Below, one piece after another: positions 18,592-62,283 of a DNA stretch of 64,000 nucleotides. Both the position numbers and the translations under genes were made by a program. The DNA is taken from NCBI GenBank assembly GCA_964016885.1, contig OZ024760.1, forward strand, positions 23,932,001-23,996,000. Direction: 5' to 3'. Each line of letters opens with the position of its first letter. The stretch's first letter is position 1. The stretch is from Eledone cirrhosa. Its lineage: Eukaryota. Under the pieces are notes generated by a model, which was not told where the DNA came from, did not search any database, and worked only from the letters and a program-made list of their open reading frames with translations.

Positions 18592-19022
18592 AATGATATT
18601 AAATAAATGGAAACTATATTTATAAAACCATATTTATTCAATTATATATATTTCAAGGATACCAAAATTTTGATGCGCTATCATCAGATAAAATACGAAG
18701 GCTGTTTTATAAATATTTGACATAACCAAGGATAATATACCTTAACGGTTCAAGTTATCCTGACTTTCCAGGGATAACTTGAACCGTTAAGGTATATTAT
18801 CCTTGGTCATGTCAAATATTTATAAAACATTTTGCATTTTATCTGATGATAGCGCACCAAAATGTTTGTATCCTTGAAATATATATTAATTGAATAAATA
18901 TGGTTTTATAAATATAGTTTCCATTTAATATCATTGAATATTTACTCCAGAAAACTGTCGAGTGCTCTGAATCAGTTATAAACATTTGTTGTATTTCCAA
19001 CAAATTAAATATCCTTTCTACT
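18592..19022. mobile_element. Fold-back HHR element, diverged family A' (HHR-like ~18636-18695 on minus; ~18836-18896 on plus)
   Basis: Inverted arms centred near 18765. CTGATGA at 18843 and GAAA at 18876. Stems partly degenerate. GAGTGCT at 18960. Confidence 0.75.
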
Positions 19023-19093: not shown

Positions 19094-19242
19094 ATATATA
19101 TATATAAATGGAATAGAATGAAACGAAATTTCATTTCTCACCTTTAGTACGGCACTTACTTAAATATAAGTATGTATGTATGTATACGTACATACATGTA
19201 TGTATACAGACGTACAGTAATATGTATATATATTCATACATG

Positions 19243-19291
<49 letters not shown>

Positions 19292-19387
19292 GTATCGGTT
19301 TTACCGAACATTTATTATAATGCTCGGTTTGTTTGTAAACAAACAAACAGCCCGAATTACGCCGTACAGTCTTTAGGCAACCACATC

Positions 19388-19716
19388 ACCTTTTTGTTCA
19401 ACACTGACCCAGGAACGATGTACTAGTTTCAAACTTATTAGCTATCGTCAGCATCGTATACCTTCCTGCCAAATGGTTGAACGTCTGAAAGTATATACCT
19501 TTTGTTCAACACTGACCCAGGAACGATGTACTAGTTTCAAACTTATTAGCTATCGTCAGCATCGTATACCTTCCTGCCAGATGGTTGAACGTCTGAAAGT
19601 ATATACTTTTTGTTCAACACTGACCCAGGAACGATGTACTAGTTTCAAACTTATTAGCTATCGTCAGCATCGTATACCTTCCTGCCAGATGGTTGAACGT
19701 CTGAAAGTATATACTT
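19388..19716 (-). repeat. 3 x 108-bp tandem repeat, each unit with a minimal type I hammerhead (retrozyme-like)
   Basis: Minus strand: acgatg-CTGACGA-tagct-aata-agttt-GAAA-ctag-TA^catcgt at 19415-19457, 19523-19565 and 19631-19673. Confidence 0.85.
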
Positions 19717-20829
19717 TCCTTATGCATATTAACGGCTGAGCAGCCTAATTTGCATATCGAGTGAGTTCAGTCGGCCGGGTGTACCGAAAACGATAAATGG
19801 ACGGCACTCTTAGTACGGCACTTACTTAAATGTAAATATGTATGTATGTATACGTAGATACATATATGTATACACGTATACATACATACAATAAATGTTC
19901 GGTAAACGATACGTGCATATATATATGTGTGCATGTGTGTATATATATACATACTACTGTACGTCTGTAATCATATATGTATGTACGTATACATACATAC
20001 ATACTTACATTTATATATATATATATGTGTATATATATATGTATGTATACATACATATATGTGTGTGTGCGTATGTATGTGTGTGTTCGTGTGAATGTCT
20101 ATGCAAATGTGTATATGTATGTGAAAGTAAATGTGTATGTGGATGTGTATGTGCATGCATATATATATAGAGAGATATCCGTATGTATGCATATGTTTGT
20201 GTATGTGTGTGCGTATGTATGTATGTGCACGTGCATGTATGTGCACGTGTATGTATGTGACTATAGGCATGTGTATGTGTATGTATGGATGCATATGTTT
20301 GTATGTATAGGTTTCTATGTATGTGACTGTATGTTTGTATGTATAGGTTTCTATGTATGTGACTGTATGTTTGTATGTATAGGTTTCTATGTATGTGACT
20401 GTATGTGTGTATGTCTACATGTGTATATGTGTATATGTGTGTATGTATGCATATGTTTGTATGTATACGTATGTATGTATGTGACTGTATATGTGTATGT
20501 CTATATGTGTATATGTGTATATGTGTGTATGTATGCATATGTTTGTATGTATACGTATGTATGTATGTGACTGTATATGTGTATGTCTATATGTGTATAT
20601 GTGTATATGTGTGTATGTATGCATATGTTTGTATGTATACGGTTCTATGCATGTGACTGTATATGTGTGTGTGTGTATGTGTATATGTGCGTATGTGTAT
20701 GTATGCATATGTTTGTATGTATACGTATGTATGTATGTGATTCCTGCTTTAGATTATTGTTGACATGATAGATGTAATAATGGTTGGTTAATTAAATAAC
20801 ATTTTAATATATAGAGATAGATTGTCACC

Positions 20830-28722: not shown

Positions 28723-29089
28723 AGATGATGCATGACATACCCTGACATAGTAAATGGTTAAGATTCAGTTATGGTAGTGATTAACTTATGACGAAACTCA
28801 ATATTTATACCCTAATATTGAGAACCTGAGATAACATAATACAAACAATAGAGAGGGTGCGTGTAATAGAGCTTAAGAAATACATGGCATCAATATGACA
28901 GTTATAAATTTTTTTTATTTTTAAAAACTACTGGAGAAAGAGGAGGGAAAGGAAAGCATAAATATATTATCACATAAATATATTATCACATCAGCTGTTT
29001 CTTCCTCTGTGTTTTCCTTTCCCTCCTCTTTCTCCAGTAGTTTTTAAAAATAAAAAAATGTATAACTGTTATATGGTTATAAAATGATC

Positions 29090-29580
29090 CTTTTAAGTGG
29101 ATATTTAAATGTAGAAGAATGGTTATAGAGTCTTGCTTTAAAAGAGGTAGAAGTAGAGCCAATGTAGGTATAGGTATTGGTATTGTTACCACTTTACATT
29201 CGTATACTAGGTTTTTATCGAGACAGAAATTACTAAGAGGACAATTAGTTCTAATAGGGCAGTTACATTTACGATTAAGATTATTAACAGAGTTATTTGC
29301 AAGTGGCCCAGGATTATTTATATTAGGAACTGGAGTGGTGGAATTCCTCAAAGTTACGTTTGACGTCTTATTTATATTTATGTTATTTTGCCTAGAGTTT
29401 ACATTGACGTTGGACCTTACAGTGTTATTATTATGACTCTCGTGGTTGGATGCATATGAGTTATTATTTAATATTTTAGAATTATGTCTTGAGATAATTT
29501 TAGAAATGTTGGAAGTAGTGGAATATGAGAATTTAATGGTATGCTTATTAAAAATCTTGCTATATATATGTGAAGGGGGG
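29090..29580 (-). pseudogene. Penelope-like retroelement ORF fragment: RT thumb end, linker, CxCx5Cx5C and N-terminal GIY-YIG endonuclease
   Basis: Manual translation gives PPSHIYSKIFNKHTIKFSYSTTSNISKIISRHNSKIL...KCNCPIRTNCPLSNFCLDKNLVYECKVVT, then after a frameshift TYTYIGSTSTSFKARLYNHSSTFK. Confidence 0.88.
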
Positions 29581-29658
29581 AGCTGTTATCTGCGTACTTC
29601 GTTGAGTGCTCCAATCTGCATACTGAGGTGTCAGTAAACAACCAACATATACTCAAAA

Positions 29659-35539: not shown

Positions 35540-35855
35540 TAAAAGGTAAACAGAAATAACGAAACAAATGGCACAATACATGGAAGAAATATATTAGTTT
35601 GACGCTTGAAATAGAAGGAAGAGCGTCTTAACGTTTCGGACGCTAGTCCTTCATCAGAAGATAGAGTTAGATATAGAAGGTAAAGAATGATAAGAGGAAG
35701 CAATAGAGGAAATGAGAAAATATAGGGAAGTAAAAAAACACAAATGCATATTCAGTGGACCATCATGTGTGTGTGAGAGAGATCTCTTCAGGTGACCACT
35801 CTCCTTATGATCTTTCATGAATGAAAGAGTTCTAGTCCTGTAGAAGTCATTTCTA
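35540..35855 (-). mobile_element. PLE-type 3' terminal repeat with a minimal HHR (35626-35661), ending in (CA)n
   Basis: Minus strand: tctt-CTGATGA-a-ggac-tagc-gtcc-GAAAcgTT^aaga, with a palindromic AACGTT stem III. Confidence 0.7.
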
Positions 35856-38792: not shown

Positions 38793-41700
38793 CAAGAGGG
38801 TCGACTGAATAATGCAGAGGCTGACCAAGATACTCTCATGGAATGACCAAATGGTGTTTATTTGTTCAACATAATCCCTGAGTTCATTGCCTGACCAAGA
38901 TTCTCTCCTGGAATTACCAAATGGTGTTTATTTGTTCAACATAATCCCTGAGTTCATTGGGTGACCAAGATTCTCTCCTGGAATGACCAAATGGTGTTTA
39001 TTTGTTCAACATAATCCCTGAGTTCATTGCCTGACCAAGATACTCTCATGGAATGACCAAATGGTGTTTATTTGTTCAACATAATCCCTGAGTTCATTAG
39101 CTGACCAAGATACTCTCATGGAATGACCAAATGGGGTTTAGTTCTTAACCTGAGTTCATTGCCTGACCAAGATACTCTCCTGGAATGACCAAATGGTGTT
39201 TATTTGTTCAACATAATCCCTGAGTTCATTGCCTGACCAAGATACTCTCCTGGAATGACCAAATGGTGTTTATTTGTTCAACATAATCCTTGAGTTCATT
39301 GCCTGACCAAGAGACTCTCCTGGAATGACCAAATGGTGTTTATTTGTTCAACATAATCCCTGAGTTCATTGCCTGACCAAGATACTCTCCTGGAATGACC
39401 AAATGGTGTTTATTTGTTCAACATAATCCTTGAGTTCATTGCCTGACCAAGAGACTCTCCTGGAATGACCAAATGGTGTTTATTTGTTCAACATAATCCC
39501 TGAGTTCATTGCCTGACCAAGATACTCTCATGGAATGACCAAATGGTGTTTATTTGTTCAACATAATCCCTGAATTCATTAGCTGACCAAGATACTCTCA
39601 TGGAATGACCAAATGGTGTTTATTTGTTCAACATAATCCCTGAGTTCATTAGCTGACCAAGATACTCTCATGGAATGACCAAATGGTGTTTATTTGTTCA
39701 ACATAATCCCTGAGTTCATTAGCTGACCAAGATACTCTCATGGAATGACCAAATGGTGTTTATTTGTTCAACATAATCCCTGAGTTCATTAGCTGACCAA
39801 GATACTCTCATGGAATGACCAAATGGTGTTTATTTGTTCAACATAATCCCTGAGTTCATTAGCTGACCAAGATACTCTCATGGAATGACCAAATGGTGTT
39901 TATTTGTTCAACATAATCCCTGAGTTCATTAGCTGACCAAGATACTCTCATGGAATGACCAAATGGTGTTTATTTGTTCAACATAATCCCTGAGTTCATT
40001 AGCTGACCAAGATACTCTCATGGAATGACCAAATGGTGTTTATTTGTTCAACATAATCCCTGAGTTCATTAGCTGACCAAGATACTCTCATGGAATGACC
40101 AAATGGTGTTTATTTGTTCAACATAATCCCTGAGTTCATTAGCTGACCAAGATACTCTCATTGAATGACCAAATGGTGTTTATTTGTTCAACATAATCCC
40201 TGAGTTCATTGCCTGACCAAGATACTCTCCTGGAATGACCAAATGGTATTTATTTGTTCAACATAATCCCTGAGTTCATTGCCAGACCAAGATACTCTCC
40301 TGGAAAGACCAAATGGTGTTTATTTGTTCAACATAATCCCTGAGTTCATTGCCTGACCAAGATACTCTCATGGAATGACCAAATGAGGTTTATTTTTTCA
40401 ACAAAGTTCCGGACTTCATTGCCTGACCAAGATACTCTCATGGAATGACCAAATGGTGTTTATTTGTTCAACATAATCCCTGAGTTCATTAGCTGACCAA
40501 GATACTCTCATGGAATGACCAAATGGTGTTTATTTGTTCAACATAATCCCTGAGTTCATTGCCTGACCAAGATTCTCTCCTGGAATGACCAAATGGTGTT
40601 TATTTGTTCAACATAATCCATGAGTTCATTGCCTGACCAAGATACTCTCATGGTATGACCAAATTGTGTTTATTTGTTCAACATAATCCCTGAGTTCATT
40701 GCCTGACCAAGATTCTCTCCTGGAATGACCAAATGGTGTTTATTTGTTCAACATAATCCCTGAGTTCATTGCCTGACCAAGATACTCTCAAGGAATGACC
40801 AAATGGTGTTTATTTGTTCAACATAATCCCTGAGTTTATTAGCTGACCAAGATACTCTCCTGGAATGACCAAATGGTGTTTATTTGTTCAACATAATCCC
40901 TGAGTTCATTGCCTGACCAAGATACTCTCATGGAATGACCAAATGGTGTTTATTTGTTCAACATAATCCATGAGTTCATTGCCTGACCAAGATACTCTCA
41001 TGGAATGACCAAATGGTGTTTATTTGTTCAACATAATCCCTGAGTTCATTGCCTGACCAAGATACTCTCCTGGAATGACCAAATGGTGTTTATTTGTTCA
41101 ACATAATCCCTGAGTTCATAGGCTGACCAAGATACTCTCATGGAATGACCAAATGGTGTTTATTTGTTCAACATAATCCCTAAGTTCATTGCCTGACCAA
41201 GATACTCTCTTGGAATGACCAAATGGTGTTTATTTGTTCAACATAATCCCTGAGTTCATTGGCTGACCAAGATACTCTCCTGGAATGACCAAATGGTGTT
41301 TATTTGTTCAACATAATCCCTGAGTTCATAGGCTGACCAAGATACTCTCAAGGAATGACCAAATGGTGTTTATTTGTTCAACATAATCCCTGAGTTCATT
41401 GGCTGACCAAGATACTCTCAGGGAATGACCAAGTGAGGTTTATTTATTTCACCTGAGTTGATAGGCTGACCAAGATACTCTGCTGGAATTACCAAATGGG
41501 GTTTATTTTCCAACATAGTTCCTGTTTTCATAGGCTGACCAAGATACTCTCATGGAATGACCAAATGGTGTTTATTTGTTCAACATAATCCCTGAGTTCA
41601 TTAGCTGACCAAGATACTCTCATGGAATGACCAAATGGTGTTTATTTGTTCAACATAATCCCTGAGTTCATTAGCTGACCAAGATACTCTCATGGAATGA

Positions 41701-44700
41701 CCAAATGGTGTTTATTTGTTCAACATAATCCCTGAGTTCATTAGCTGACCAAGATACTCTCATGGAATGACCAAATGGTGTTTATTTGTTCAACATAATC
41801 CCTGAGTTCATTAGCTGACCAAGATACTCTCATGGAATGACCAAATGGTGTTTATTTGTTCAACATAATCCCTGAGTTCATTAGCTGACCAAGATACTCT
41901 CATGGAATGACCAAATGGTGTTTATTTGTTCAACATAATCCCTGAGTTCATTAGCTGACCAAGATACTCTCATGGAATGACCAAATGGTGTTTATTTGTT
42001 CAACATAATCCCTGAGTTCATTAGCTGACCAAGATACTCTCATGGAATGACCAAATGGTGTTTATTTGTTCAACATAATCCCTGAGTTCATTGCCTGACC
42101 AAGATACTCTCCTTGAATGACCAAATGGTGTTTATTTGTTCAACATAATCCCTGAGTTCATTGCCTGACCAAGATACTCTCCTGGAATGACCAAATGGTG
42201 TTTATTTGTTCAACATAATCCCTGAGTTCATTAGCTGACCAAGATACTCTCATGGAATGACCAAATGGTGTTTATTTGTTCAACATAATCCCTGAGTTCA
42301 TTAGCTGACCAAGATACTCTCATGGAATGACCAAATGGTGTTTATTTGTTCAACATAATCCCTGAGTTCATTGCCTGACCAAGATACTCTCCTTGAATGA
42401 CCAAATGGTGTTTATTTGTTCAACATAATCCCTGAGTTCATTGCCTGACCAAGATACTCTCCTGGAATGACCAAATGGTATTTATTTGTTCAACATAATC
42501 CCTGAGTTCATTGCCTGACCAAGATACTCTCCTGGAATGACCAAATGGTGTTTATTTGTTCAACATAATCCCTGAGTTCATTGCCTGACCAAGATACTCT
42601 CATGGAATGACCAAATGAGGTTTATTTTTTCAACAAAGTTCCGGACTTCATTGCCTGACCAAGATACTCTCATGGAATGACCAAATGGTGTTTATTTGTT
42701 CAACATAATCCCTGAGTTCATTAGCTGACCAAGATACTCTCATGGAATGACCAAATGGTGTTTATTTGTTCAACATAATCCCTGAGTTCATTGCCTGACC
42801 AAGATTCTCTCCTGGAATGACCAAATGGTGTTTATTTGTTCAACATAATCCATGAGTTCATTGCCTGACCAAGATACTCTCATGGTATGACCAAATGGTG
42901 TTTATTTGTTCAACATAATCCCTGAGTTCATTGCCTGACCAAGATTCTCTCCTGGAATGACCAAATGGTGTTTATTTGTTCAACATAATCCCTGAGTTCA
43001 TTGCCTGACCAAGATACTCTCCTGGAATGACCAAATGGTGTTTATTTGTTCAACATAATCCCTGAGTTCATAGGCTGACCAAGATACTCTCCTGGAATGA
43101 CCAAATGGTGTTTATTTGTTCAACATAATCCCTAAGTTCATTGCCTGACCAAGATACTCTCATGGAATGACCAAATGGTGTTTATTTGTTCAACATAATC
43201 CCTGAGTTCATTGGCTGACCAAGATACTCTCCTGGAATGACCAAATGGTGTTTATTTGTTCAACATAATCCCTGAGTTCATAGGCTGACCAAGATACTCT
43301 CAAGGAATGACCAAATGGTGTTTATTTGTTCAACATAATCCCTGAGTTCATTGGCTGACCAAGATACTCTCAGGGAATGACCAAGTGAGGTTTATTTATT
43401 TCACCTGAGTTGATAGGCTGACCAAGATACTCTGCTGGAATTACCAAATGGGGTTTATTTTCCAACATAGTTCCTGTTTTCATAGGCTGACCAAGATACT
43501 CTCATGGAATGACCAAATGGTGTTTATTTGTTCAACATAATCCCTGAGTTCATTAGCTGACCAAGATACTCTCATGGAATGACCAAATGGTGTTTATTTG
43601 TTCAACATAATCCCTGAGTTCATTAGCTGACCAAGATACTCTCATGGAATGACCAAATGGTGTTTATTTGTTCAACATAATCCCTGAGTTCATTAGCTGA
43701 CCAAGATACTCTCATGGAATGACCAAATGGTGTTTATTTGTTCAACATAATCCCTGAGTTCATTAGCTGACCAAGATACTCTCATGGAATGACCAAATGG
43801 TGTTTATTTGTTCAACATAATCCCTGAGTTCATTAGCTGACCAAGATACTCTCATGGAATGACCAAATGGTGTTTATTTGTTCAACATAATCCCTGAGTT
43901 CATTAGCTGACCAAGATACTCTCATGGAATGACCAAATGGTGTTTATTTGTTCAACATAATCCCTGAGTTCATTAGCTGACCAAGATACTCTCATGGAAT
44001 GACCAAATGGTGTTTATTTGTTCAACATAATCCCTGAGTTCATTGCCTGACCAAGATACTCTCCTTGAATGACCAAATGGTGTTTATTTGTTCAACATAA
44101 TCCCTGAGTTCATTGCCTGACCAAGATACTCTCCTGGAATGACCAAATGGTATTTATTTGTTCAACATAATCCCTGAGTTCATTGCCTGACCAAGATTCT
44201 CTCCTGGAATGACCAAATGGTGTTTATTTGTTCAACATAATCCATTAGTTCATTGCCTGACCAAGATACTCTCATGGTATGACCAAATGGTGTTTATTTG
44301 TTCAACATAATCCCTGAGTTCATTGCCTGACCAAGATTCTCTCCTGGAATGACCAAATGGTGTTTATTTGTTCAACATAATCCCTGAGTTCATTGCCTGA
44401 CCAAGATACTCTCAAGGAATGACCAAATGGTGTTTATTTGTTCAACATAATCCCTGAGTTTATTAGCTGACCAAGATACTCTCCTGGAATGACCAAATGG
44501 TGTTTATTTGTTCAACATAATCCCTGAGTTCATTGCCTGACCAAGATACTCTCATGGAATGACCAAATGGTGTTTATTTGTTCAACATAATCCATGAGTT
44601 CATTGCCTGACCAAGATACTCTCATGGAATGACCAAATGGTGTTTATTTGTTCAACATAATCCCTGAGTTCATAGGCTGACCAAGATACTCTCATGGAAT

Positions 44701-45352
44701 GACCAAATGGTGTTTATTTGTTCAACATAATCCCTGAGTTCATTGCCTGACCAAGATACTCTCCTGGAATGACCAAATGGTGTTTATTTGTTCAACATAA
44801 TCCCTGAGTTCATAGGCTGACCAAGATACTCTCATGGAATGACCAAATGGTGTTTATTTGTTCAACATAATCCCTAAGTTCATTGCCTGACCAAGATACT
44901 CTCATGGAATGACCAAATGGTGTTTATTTGTTCAACATAATCCCTGAGTTCATTGGCTGACCAAGATACTCTCCTGGAATGACCAAATGGTGTTTATTTG
45001 TTCAACATAATCCCTGAGTTCATAGGCTGACCAAGATACTCTCAAGGAATGACCAAATGGTGTTTATTTGTTCAACATAATCCCTGAGTTCATTGGCTGA
45101 CCAAGATACTCTCAGGGAATGACCAAGTGAGGTTTATTTATTTCACCTGAGTTGATAGGCTGACCAAGATACTCTGCTGGAATTACCAAATGGGGTTTAT
45201 TTTCCAACATAGTTCCTGTTTTCATAGGCTGACCAAGATACTCTCATGGAATGACCAAATGGTGTTTATTTTTTCAACATAATCCCTGAGTTGATAGGCT
45301 GACCAAGATACTCTCATGGAGTGACCAAACGAGGTTTATTTCTTCAAGTTCC
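38793..45352. repeat. 70-bp tandem satellite (~93 units) with higher-order structure
   Basis: Unit ctgaccaagatactctcatggaatgaccaaatggtgtttatttgttcaacataatccctgagttcattag. Diagnostic variant units recur near 41431, 43383 and 45125. Confidence 0.97.
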
Positions 45353-53121: not shown

Positions 53122-53235
<114 letters not shown>

Positions 53236-54088
53236 TGAAGACAAACATAGAATATTCGAAAATATTCTGTATGTTTATAATAAACATTTTGAAGACCCAA
53301 TCGCTATAGAATAGAATACGTCACGTATTACAATTTGAGATTCTCGACAAAAGCAAGGGAAGTAATCTACGCGTTTCATTCTTATTAGAAATCATCAGGA
53401 TTACATATCCAATGCTTTTATCGAGAACGACACAGCTAGAGACTTATAGAATACTTAGCTGTGTACAGGAACTGGTTTGAAAGAGCGGTAGCCGGTCCGG
53501 CAGAAATTAGAATTTGGATTTAATGCTCTGAAATAGCGATATATATGTGAAGACAAACATAGAATATTTGAAAATATTCTGTATGTTTATAATAAACATT
53601 TTGAAGACCCAATCGCTATAGAATAGAATACGTCACGTATTACAATTTGAGATTCTCGACAAAAGCAAGGGAAGTAATCTACGCGTTTCATTCTTATTAG
53701 AAATCATCAGGATTACATATCCAATGCTTTTATCGAGAACGAGACACAGCTAGAGACTTATAGAATACTTAGCTGTGTACAGGAACTGGTTTGAAAGAGC
53801 GGTAGCCGGTCCGGCAGAAATTAGAATTTGGATTTAATGCTCTGAAATAGCGATATATATATGAAGACAAACATAGAATATTCGAAAATATTCTGTATGT
53901 TTATAATAAACATTTTGAAGACCCAATCGCTATAGAATAGAATACGTCACGTATTACAATTTGAGATTCTCGACAAAAGCAAGGGAAGTAATCTACGCGT
54001 TTCATTCTTATTAGAAATCATCAGGATTACATATCCAATGCTTTTATCGAGAACGACACAGCTAGAGACTTATAGAATACTTAGCTGT
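53236..54088 (-). repeat. ~2.7 x 312-314 bp tandem repeat with one minimal type I hammerhead per unit (non-LTR retrozyme-like)
   Basis: Minus strand: gtaatc-CTGATGA-tttct-aata-agaat-GAAA-cgcg-TA^gattac at 53362-53404, 53674-53716 and 53988-54030. Flanked by (TA)n. Confidence 0.9.
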
Positions 54089-56549: not shown

Positions 56550-56690
56550 ACTACTCTTTCGTGTATCTGTTCTGTCCCTATCCAAACTTCCCTGAAGAAG
56601 AACTTCTGTCCGAAACTTCGAAACCTCCTCCACTTCCACCAAGTGGGAACCTAATATAACTGTGTAAACATTGCCTCTTGTTTCATTTAT

Positions 56691-59824: not shown

Positions 59825-60585
<761 letters not shown>

Positions 60586-61989: not shown

Positions 61990-62283
61990 AAATAAAATAG
62001 ATGTTCTTTTGATCAATTACATTTTATTATACATATTTCGGATGTACAACAGTGCGTCCTCATCAGACAAAATATAATGATACATGACATACCCTGGGAT
62101 GTTAAATGGTACTGTTGTACATCGGAAATATGTATAATAAAATGTAATTGATCAAAAGAAGATCTATATTATTAATACTTATATTAATAACTCGTGAAAA
62201 TTATTTCAGTGGAGTGCTTCCAATCTACTGTAAAACTCATTCTTTGACATAATCTTCGAATATTGTTTAACAACTTAATACTA
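61990..62283. mobile_element. Fold-back family B element (complete HHR ~62020-62073 on minus; only the 3' half of the HHR on plus)
   Basis: Minus strand: CTGATGA-ggacgcac-tgtt-gtacatcc-GAAAtatgtaTA^ataaaat. The plus arm starts within stem II. GAGTGCT at 62212. Homologous to 28515-28760. Confidence 0.8.

What the first reader, a model, noticed from the sequence alone, without database searches (positions are those of the whole stretch)
19388..19716. Very small 108-bp retrozyme-like tandem array
Three near-identical 108-bp units each carry a minimal HHR on the minus strand. Cleavage would release 108-nt monomers, shorter than the roughly 170-400 nt that I recall for animal non-LTR retrozymes. 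The tandem arrangement permits dimeric HHR folding through ACTAGT. It is a candidate tiny circular RNA.
Basis: partly seen in the sequence, partly recalled or inferred. Interest (0 to 1): 0.75.

Follow-up and report, generated by a model that had tools for sequence, protein, structure and literature searches.

The report
One-off hammerhead triplication inside a retrozyme
Three head-to-tail copies of a 108-base piece carrying a predicted self-cutting RNA motif were found only at this one spot, inside one copy of a roughly 440-base jumping repeat that occurs thousands of times in the genome, so this is likely a local copying slip in a known kind of element rather than a new family of tiny circular RNAs.

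Summary
The array is real: 3.0 x 108 bp, 98% alike, each unit with a type I hammerhead core on the minus strand. It is not a 108-nt retrozyme family. The unit is an internal hairpin of a dispersed non-coding element: 2,416 + 1,196 exact core matches. Its natural repeat is 381-524 bp in 20 of 22 spacings, and none is under 270. The parent has Penelope-type insertions: two fixed 3' ends in 51 of 54 copies, usually followed by (TA)n, and inverted 5' arms in 26 of 54. Its hammerhead has a U.U at the base of stem II, like a Hydra-type Penelope element in this genome and an active axolotl retrozyme (PMC7229834). A double-hammerhead fold is possible (2.6 kcal/mol above the minimum), so a 108-nt product is not excluded; cleavage and expression are untested. 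The scan found such octopus retrozymes before on other DNA. Verdict: ordinary local duplication in a new member of a known kind.

The parts
19104..20013 (.). Whole two-armed insertion of the ~440-bp non-autonomous hammerhead element (non-LTR retrozyme / non-autonomous Penelope-like element)
   Evidence: Mapped against a natural monomer used as ruler (row L001) and against 27 other loci
19104..19874 (-). Sense arm, about 1.2 monomers plus the two extra 108-bp units; 3' end at the family's distal fixed end, running into (TA)n
19805..19874 (-). 5' partial repeat (tail of a preceding monomer, pLTR-like), direct repeat of 19139-19208
   Evidence: family D3 (91%); (6 differences in 74)
19887..20013 (+). 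Inverted 5' arm, ending at the family's proximal fixed end
   Evidence: (9 differences in 127 from the main arm)
19606..19713 (-). 108-bp unit A (5'-most), continuous with the parent's upstream flank
19498..19605 (-). 108-bp unit B; both its junctions are unique to this locus
19390..19497 (-). 108-bp unit C, continuous with the parent's downstream flank
19631..19673 (-). Predicted type I hammerhead of unit A (N17 at 19637)
19523..19565 (-). Predicted type I hammerhead of unit B (N17 at 19529)
19415..19457 (-). Predicted type I hammerhead of unit C (N17 at 19421)
19703..19718 (.). 16-bp palindrome at the 5' foot of the hammerhead hairpin; it holds the 4-nt AAAG microhomology at the duplication breakpoint
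   Evidence: self-match of positions 84-99; DNA fold

Best explanation
The array is a single-locus triplication of the hammerhead-bearing hairpin inside one copy of an abundant ~440-bp non-coding repeat, a likely retrozyme that Penelope-like enzymes likely copy around the genome, and it probably arose by a DNA copying slip after the insertion. Shown: the unit is colinear with the parent on both sides; the junction is unique; family repeats are mostly 381-524 bp; the parent's copies end at two fixed sites, usually before (TA)n, and often carry an inverted 5' arm. Inferred: (1) the parent is transcribed, cut by paired hammerheads and possibly circularised, and a Penelope-type RT/endonuclease (best guess Hydra clade) starts reverse transcription at one of two fixed sites about 220 and 280 nt downstream of the cut; (2) at this locus the hairpin brought the AAAG at its 3' foot next to the palindrome at its 5' foot, so slippage or fold-back synthesis re-copied exactly this hairpin, and a second slip or unequal exchange gave the third unit; (3) if transcribed, the trimer could release 108-nt pieces, but these lack both start sites, which would explain why no 108-bp progeny were found.
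For: Junction: 2 exact matches in 2,995,841,428 bases, both here; the same 2 with a pattern allowing 96-108-bp units and both main subfamilies; no other hit across the junction among 40 scored of 939 BLAST candidates. Family: 2,416 exact 34-nt cores, 1,196 of a second core pattern, 298 of a third. Spacing: 89 of 92 loci carry the hammerhead, 131 copies; 20 of 22 same-strand spacings are 381-524 bp, the others 270 and 1,301; a long array repeats at 467-525 bp, 8 of 8 spacings. Ends: 51 of 54 copies end at ruler 375-392 or 433-442, usually before (TA)n, and 26 of 54 were flagged with an inverted 5' arm (my tally). These match PLE hallmarks in PMC8557442 and PMC11167929. Structure: 96% of 988 cells paired, against 29-44% when slid; stem I pair 36/72 occurs as AU 20, GU 8, UG 7, GC 1, UA 1. 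Partner: L112 has a 722-aa open frame between 385-bp 96%-identical direct repeats, with RWR, DKT and CxCX5C motifs, a (TA)n end and a U.U-based hammerhead, fitting the Hydra definition. Timing: arms made at insertion differ at 9 of 127 sites, the units at 2 sites over 3 x 108; binomial p 0.012-0.023. Breakpoint fold.
Against: The timing test is weak: Fisher p 0.053 on the most divergent unit pair, and the arms are microsatellite-like and may mutate faster. Against the family majority, the non-microsatellite flank has only about 3 rare changes. Template jumps at insertion are visible in other copies (L030, 270-bp spacing), so a jump during reverse transcription remains possible. No nucleotide homology links the element to the terminal repeats of either autonomous Penelope-like family sampled; BLAST hits in those 40 loci were copies of the element itself. 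The Hydra assignment therefore rests on hammerhead type and target only. The exact and gapped junction patterns miss mutated junctions and other unit lengths, and only 92 loci of over 3,600 cores were examined for spacing. Covariation counts sequences, not events: only 2 pairs change on both sides, no more than in shuffles (357 of 500).
Confidence: 0.85

Rival explanations
1. Same locus-specific triplication, but made during insertion: the Penelope-type reverse transcriptase jumped back twice across the foot of the RNA hairpin while copying the parent RNA.
For: The breakpoints flank the RNA hairpin exactly. Rearranged junctions occur in other insertions (L030, L019). The two junctions differ by one base.
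Against: The units are more alike (2 changes over 324 sites) than the arms made at insertion (9 of 127; p 0.012-0.023). All three units share a rare T-to-G change seen in 1 of 52 other copies, which fits a change that came before the triplication.
Confidence: 0.2
2. One reading: an independent 108-nt retrozyme whose circular RNA is reverse-transcribed by rolling circle and inserted as tandem arrays.
For: Intact cores in all three units; double-hammerhead folds at -90.5 against -93.1 kcal/mol; short retrozyme consensus lengths are reported (51-972 bp).
Against: The junction is unique. The array is continuous with parent sequence on both sides, which a rolling-circle copy of a 108-nt circle would not be. 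The unit lacks both fixed 3' ends of the family. The 108-nt circles fold no better than shuffles (z -1.4 and -0.5), whereas five natural 426-453-nt monomers give z -4.2 to -8.9, partly owing to palindromic microsatellite.
Confidence: 0.03
3. Assembly artefact: the three units are a mis-joined repeat and the locus has one unit.
For: The junction occurs nowhere else in the assembly.
Against: The units are not identical (2 differences), the junction sits on a structurally plausible microhomology, and the flanks form a coherent single insertion.
Confidence: 0.06

Closest known systems
Metazoan non-LTR retrozymes (coral, mussel, axolotl; Cervera and de la Pena 2020, PMC7229834; parts 2-4 of 6 read)
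   Same: Non-coding A+T-rich unit with one type I hammerhead, in monomers, dimers and long arrays. The U.U at the base of stem II matches axolotl HHR_Amex2, which cleaved 22% as a monomer and much better as a dimer.
   Different: The parent monomer (about 430-450 bp, up to about 525) is at or above the 170-400 nt reported there. The 108-bp repeat is a private sub-monomer triplication. No RNA or cleavage data here.
Non-LTR retrozymes as non-autonomous PLE derivatives (Li, Clavereau, Pollet, bioRxiv 10.64898/2026.07.22.740005; parts 1-3 of 5 read, supplements closed)
   Same: This array could pass their screen (tandem repeat with at least 2 consecutive hammerhead units; their fold-energy filter was not run here). 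They report unit lengths of 51-972 bp and propose local tandem amplification of PLE terminal sequence.
   Different: They link retrozymes to PLEs by co-occurrence and pLTR homology; here no pLTR homology was found, but the insertion shape is PLE-like. Only 1 of their 9 tested dimers cleaved, a caution for this one.
Penelope-like elements, Hydra clade (Craig et al. 2021, PMC8557442; passages and section 11 read) and Poseidon PAc mechanism (Frangieh et al. 2024, PMC11167929; parts 1-2 of 4 read)
   Same: Partial tandems, inverted 5' copies, (TA)n targets, hammerhead in the terminal repeat, and two internal reverse-transcription start sites that leave an optional 'tail'.
   Different: No ORF. The two ends lie about 55-60 nt apart (30-40 reported for the tail) and much further from the hammerhead than in the Hydra-type element of this genome (about 220/280 against about 40/110 nt).
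PLE minimal hammerheads (Cervera and de la Pena 2014, PMC4209133; parts 1-2 of 4 read)
   Same: Palindromic vestigial helix III, expected to need a dimer; low activity expected.
   Different: It lacks the G10.1-C11.1 pair that the paper calls highly conserved: U.U in 27, C.A in 8, other in 2 of 37 distinct motifs.

Membership tests
Type I hammerhead ribozyme | CUGANGA and GAAA core, NUH site, helices I and II | tested here: met
   GUA site in all three units
Type I hammerhead ribozyme | G10.1-C11.1 pair closing helix II | tested here: not met
   U.U here and in most of the family; the same mismatch is tolerated in axolotl HHR_Amex2
Type I hammerhead ribozyme | Helix III, in cis or through a dimer | tested here: inconclusive
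   Only through the ACUAGU duplex: constrained fold 2.6 kcal/mol above the minimum, but ensemble probability 0.002; the energy model omits core tertiary contacts
Type I hammerhead ribozyme | Self-cleavage | not testable with these tools
   needs in vitro transcription
Non-LTR retrozyme (parent ~440-bp element) | Multi-copy, non-coding unit with one type I hammerhead, in monomers and tandem arrays | tested here: met
Non-LTR retrozyme (parent ~440-bp element) | Expressed as linear and circular monomer RNA | not testable with these tools
   no RNA run was available to lay
Non-LTR retrozyme (108-bp unit as its own family) | Same unit length at several loci, mobilised as that unit | tested here: not met
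Non-autonomous Penelope-like element | Partial tandem and inverted 5' arms, fixed 3' ends with optional tail, (TA)n target | tested here: met
   two fixed ends in 51 of 54, inverted arm flagged in 26 of 54
Non-autonomous Penelope-like element | Sequence homology to the pLTR of an autonomous PLE | tested here: inconclusive
   none found in 40 loci of two Penelope-like families; other families not sampled; the same U.U hammerhead type is present in the Hydra-type element

The most novel reading that the evidence does not exclude
A miniature retrozyme caught at birth: one copying slip put three hammerheads 108 nt apart, this locus is transcribed from the parent's upstream flank, and it yields a 108-nt circular RNA, smaller than the 150-170-nt lower bound given for animal ribozyme circles in PMC7229834, which cannot spread because it has lost the Penelope start sites.
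Probability: 0.1. Interest if true: 0.55.

Novelty: new member of a known kind. Interest (0 to 1): 0.24.

Why it matters
As it stands it matters little: a private duplication in one of thousands of copies of a known kind of element. It has two modest uses. It shows how a 'short retrozyme family' can be an accident of one locus, a caution for tandem-repeat-plus-hammerhead screens that report very short units. It also offers a ready natural construct to ask whether a bare hammerhead hairpin can be cut and circularised at about 100 nt. The parent family adds another case of a retrozyme with Penelope-shaped insertions, and the U.U hammerhead shared with a Hydra-type element suggests a specific partner to test.

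Tried and rejected
Sequencing runs: no RNA holder listed, which says nothing on expression. Laying contigs of X1-X3 (one sample) and X5 on the junction gave no piece bridging it, with no cover at 19614-19625. A hole in collapsed contigs proves nothing, and these may be other individuals. RAD reads of X8 confirm the family and show that the window's alleles at 19409/19625 and 19433/19649 are minority ones, but do not test the junction. Rfam: nothing relevant. Pfam does not name the Penelope-like proteins beyond a weak RVT_1 hit for L108; their clade was judged from motifs. The idea that the U.U marks a decayed copy was rejected: it is the family state. The window's AAGUUU variant is minor (2 of the first 100 places), and the minimum-energy trimer fold pairs the GAAA cores of two units with each other in a non-catalytic register, which may lower activity. 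The bacterial promoter scan is not applicable and found 0 sites. A Pol III-type promoter (octamer-like word 19748-19755 plus TATATA; motif labels recalled) was considered and not tested. Literature searches listed no paper on this family or on sub-monomer hammerhead duplications; subscription journals, Repbase and the bioRxiv supplements were not visible and may hold both. Earlier-findings look-ups by sequence and by words gave nothing on this array.

Full report
Observation. The array is at 19390-19717: period 108, 3.0 copies, 98% matches, with two differences among the three units. On the minus strand each unit carries CUGACGA and GAAA cores, a 6-bp stem I, a 4-bp stem II with a U.U mismatch at its base, the palindrome ACUAGU in place of stem III, and a GUA site. 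The core pattern matches 12 times in the window against 0.29 expected. Rfam does not see it. The hammerhead caps a long hairpin that fills the unit.

What it belongs to. A search of the window's own 3.0-Gb genome with the unit gave 763 candidates, of which 40 were scored. None of the 27 other loci fetched has a head-to-tail 108-bp repeat; the segment sits in the same flanks as in the window, apart from truncations. Exact core patterns count 2,416 copies of the window's subfamily, 1,196 of a pattern dominated by a sister subfamily with C.A in place of U.U and 298 further variants. Among 92 loci, 89 carry the motif (131 copies). Twenty of 22 same-strand spacings are 381-524 bp, the others 270 and 1,301, and a long array on another contig repeats at 467-525 bp. 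The 108-bp junction matches twice in the genome, both here, with an exact pattern and with a gapped pattern covering 96-108-bp units; BLAST finds no other hit across it among 40 scored candidates. Limits: mutated junctions and other unit lengths could be missed, and only 92 loci were examined for spacing.

The parent element. Mapped on a natural 440-bp monomer, 51 of 54 copies end at one of two sites about 55-60 nt apart, usually followed by (TA)n. Twenty-six of 54 were flagged with an inverted 5' arm (one flag is probably microsatellite noise), and many run more than one monomer (tallied by me). The window's insertion (19104-20013) has this shape: an inverted arm ending at one site and a sense arm ending at the other. 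These are hallmarks described for Penelope-like elements (PMC8557442), and two internal reverse-transcription starts explain such ends in a Poseidon element (PMC11167929). The label 'octopus' also comes from those notes and the repeat landscape and was not tested. The hairpin is kept across 38 copies: 96% of cells paired against 29-44% for slid controls, and one stem I pair takes five forms. Only two pairs change on both sides, which shuffles also reach. The U.U is the family state (27 of 37 distinct motifs) and has a precedent in axolotl HHR_Amex2, which cleaves, best as a dimer (PMC7229834).

Likely partner. Two abundant Penelope-like protein families were sampled. One (L112) has a 722-aa open frame between 385-bp direct repeats, RWR, DKT and CxCX5C motifs and a (TA)n end, fitting the Hydra clade. 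Its hammerhead also has U.U at the base of stem II and a palindromic stem III. The other (L108, 995 aa) carries a different hammerhead-like motif. No nucleotide homology to either terminal repeat was found, so the Hydra link is a best guess.

How the triplet arose. The breakpoints lie at the two feet of the hairpin, on a 4-nt AAAG microhomology, and the 5' foot is a 16-bp palindrome. In a single-stranded DNA fold of the duplicated allele the junction pairs with that palindrome (z -4.1 and -6.5); in a single-unit copy the palindrome folds on itself. Slippage or fold-back synthesis would re-copy exactly this segment. Arms made at insertion differ at 9 of 127 sites, the units at 2 sites over 324 (p 0.012-0.023; Fisher 0.053), which favours a later DNA event but only weakly. 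A jump by the reverse transcriptase remains possible, since other copies show rearranged junctions.

Could it still make a 108-nt RNA? A full double hammerhead between neighbouring units scores -90.5 kcal/mol against a minimum of -93.1, but the ACUAGU duplex has an ensemble probability of only 0.002, and the minimum fold pairs the cores in a non-catalytic register. The 108-nt circles fold no better than shuffles (z -1.4, -0.5), unlike five natural monomers (z -4.2 to -8.9, partly inflated by palindromic microsatellite). The unit lacks both fixed 3' ends, so a released circle would probably not be mobilised, in line with the lack of progeny. In a vertebrate survey only 1 of 9 predicted dimers cleaved, and unit lengths of 51-972 bp were listed (bioRxiv 10.64898/2026.07.22.740005; supplements not seen). 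No expression test was possible.

Verdict. The array works like a retrozyme multimer on paper, but it is a one-off duplication inside a new member of a known kind, of a sort this scan has reported before on other DNA (whether those are the same family was not tested). Interest 0.24.

Noticed in passing
window 53227-54088 (-): A second, different tandem element: 314 bp x 2.8, 98% alike, three hammerhead cores with the same U.U base and an ACGCGU palindrome, ending in (TA)n. It looks more like a typical retrozyme array than the 108-bp one; related sequence is in L085 and L112.
   Followed up: partly
window 18594-18960: A roughly 365-bp inverted repeat between (TA)n tracts, with a CTGATGA...GAAA core-like word in each arm; related copies in L099, L100, L111, L115. 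Probably a two-armed insertion of a third family.
   Followed up: partly
window 35634-35657 (-), 60361-60384 (+), 62036-62066 (-), 56592-56623 (+): Further isolated hammerhead cores; the first two look like the min-HHR type with an extra base before stem II.
   Followed up: no
window 28986-29585 (-): 199-aa open frame resembling the C-terminal linker region of a Penelope-like protein (judged by eye, no Pfam hit).
   Followed up: partly
window 38819-45347: 70-bp satellite, 93.7 copies, 94% alike.
   Followed up: no
L112:2500-5461; L113-L117: Near-complete Hydra-type Penelope-like element with 385-bp terminal repeats; copies end at two sites about 70 nt apart, with inverted arms starting at the other site. 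The sections read of PMC8557442 list Mollusca for this clade.
   Followed up: partly
L108:2037-5021 and 5218: 995-aa Penelope-like open frame followed by a hammerhead-like core without an obvious type I stem III; earlier notes describe re-ordered hammerheads in this genome (e1-8671745), not checked here.
   Followed up: no
L145 (G000:C3, from 12,272,007 to beyond 12,294,000): Long tandem array of a diverged subfamily of the same element, units 467-525 bp in the stretch read.
   Followed up: partly
window 19703-19755 (-): Octamer-like word and TATATA just upstream of the hairpin, kept in both main subfamilies; a possible internal promoter (motif labels recalled, untested).
   Followed up: no
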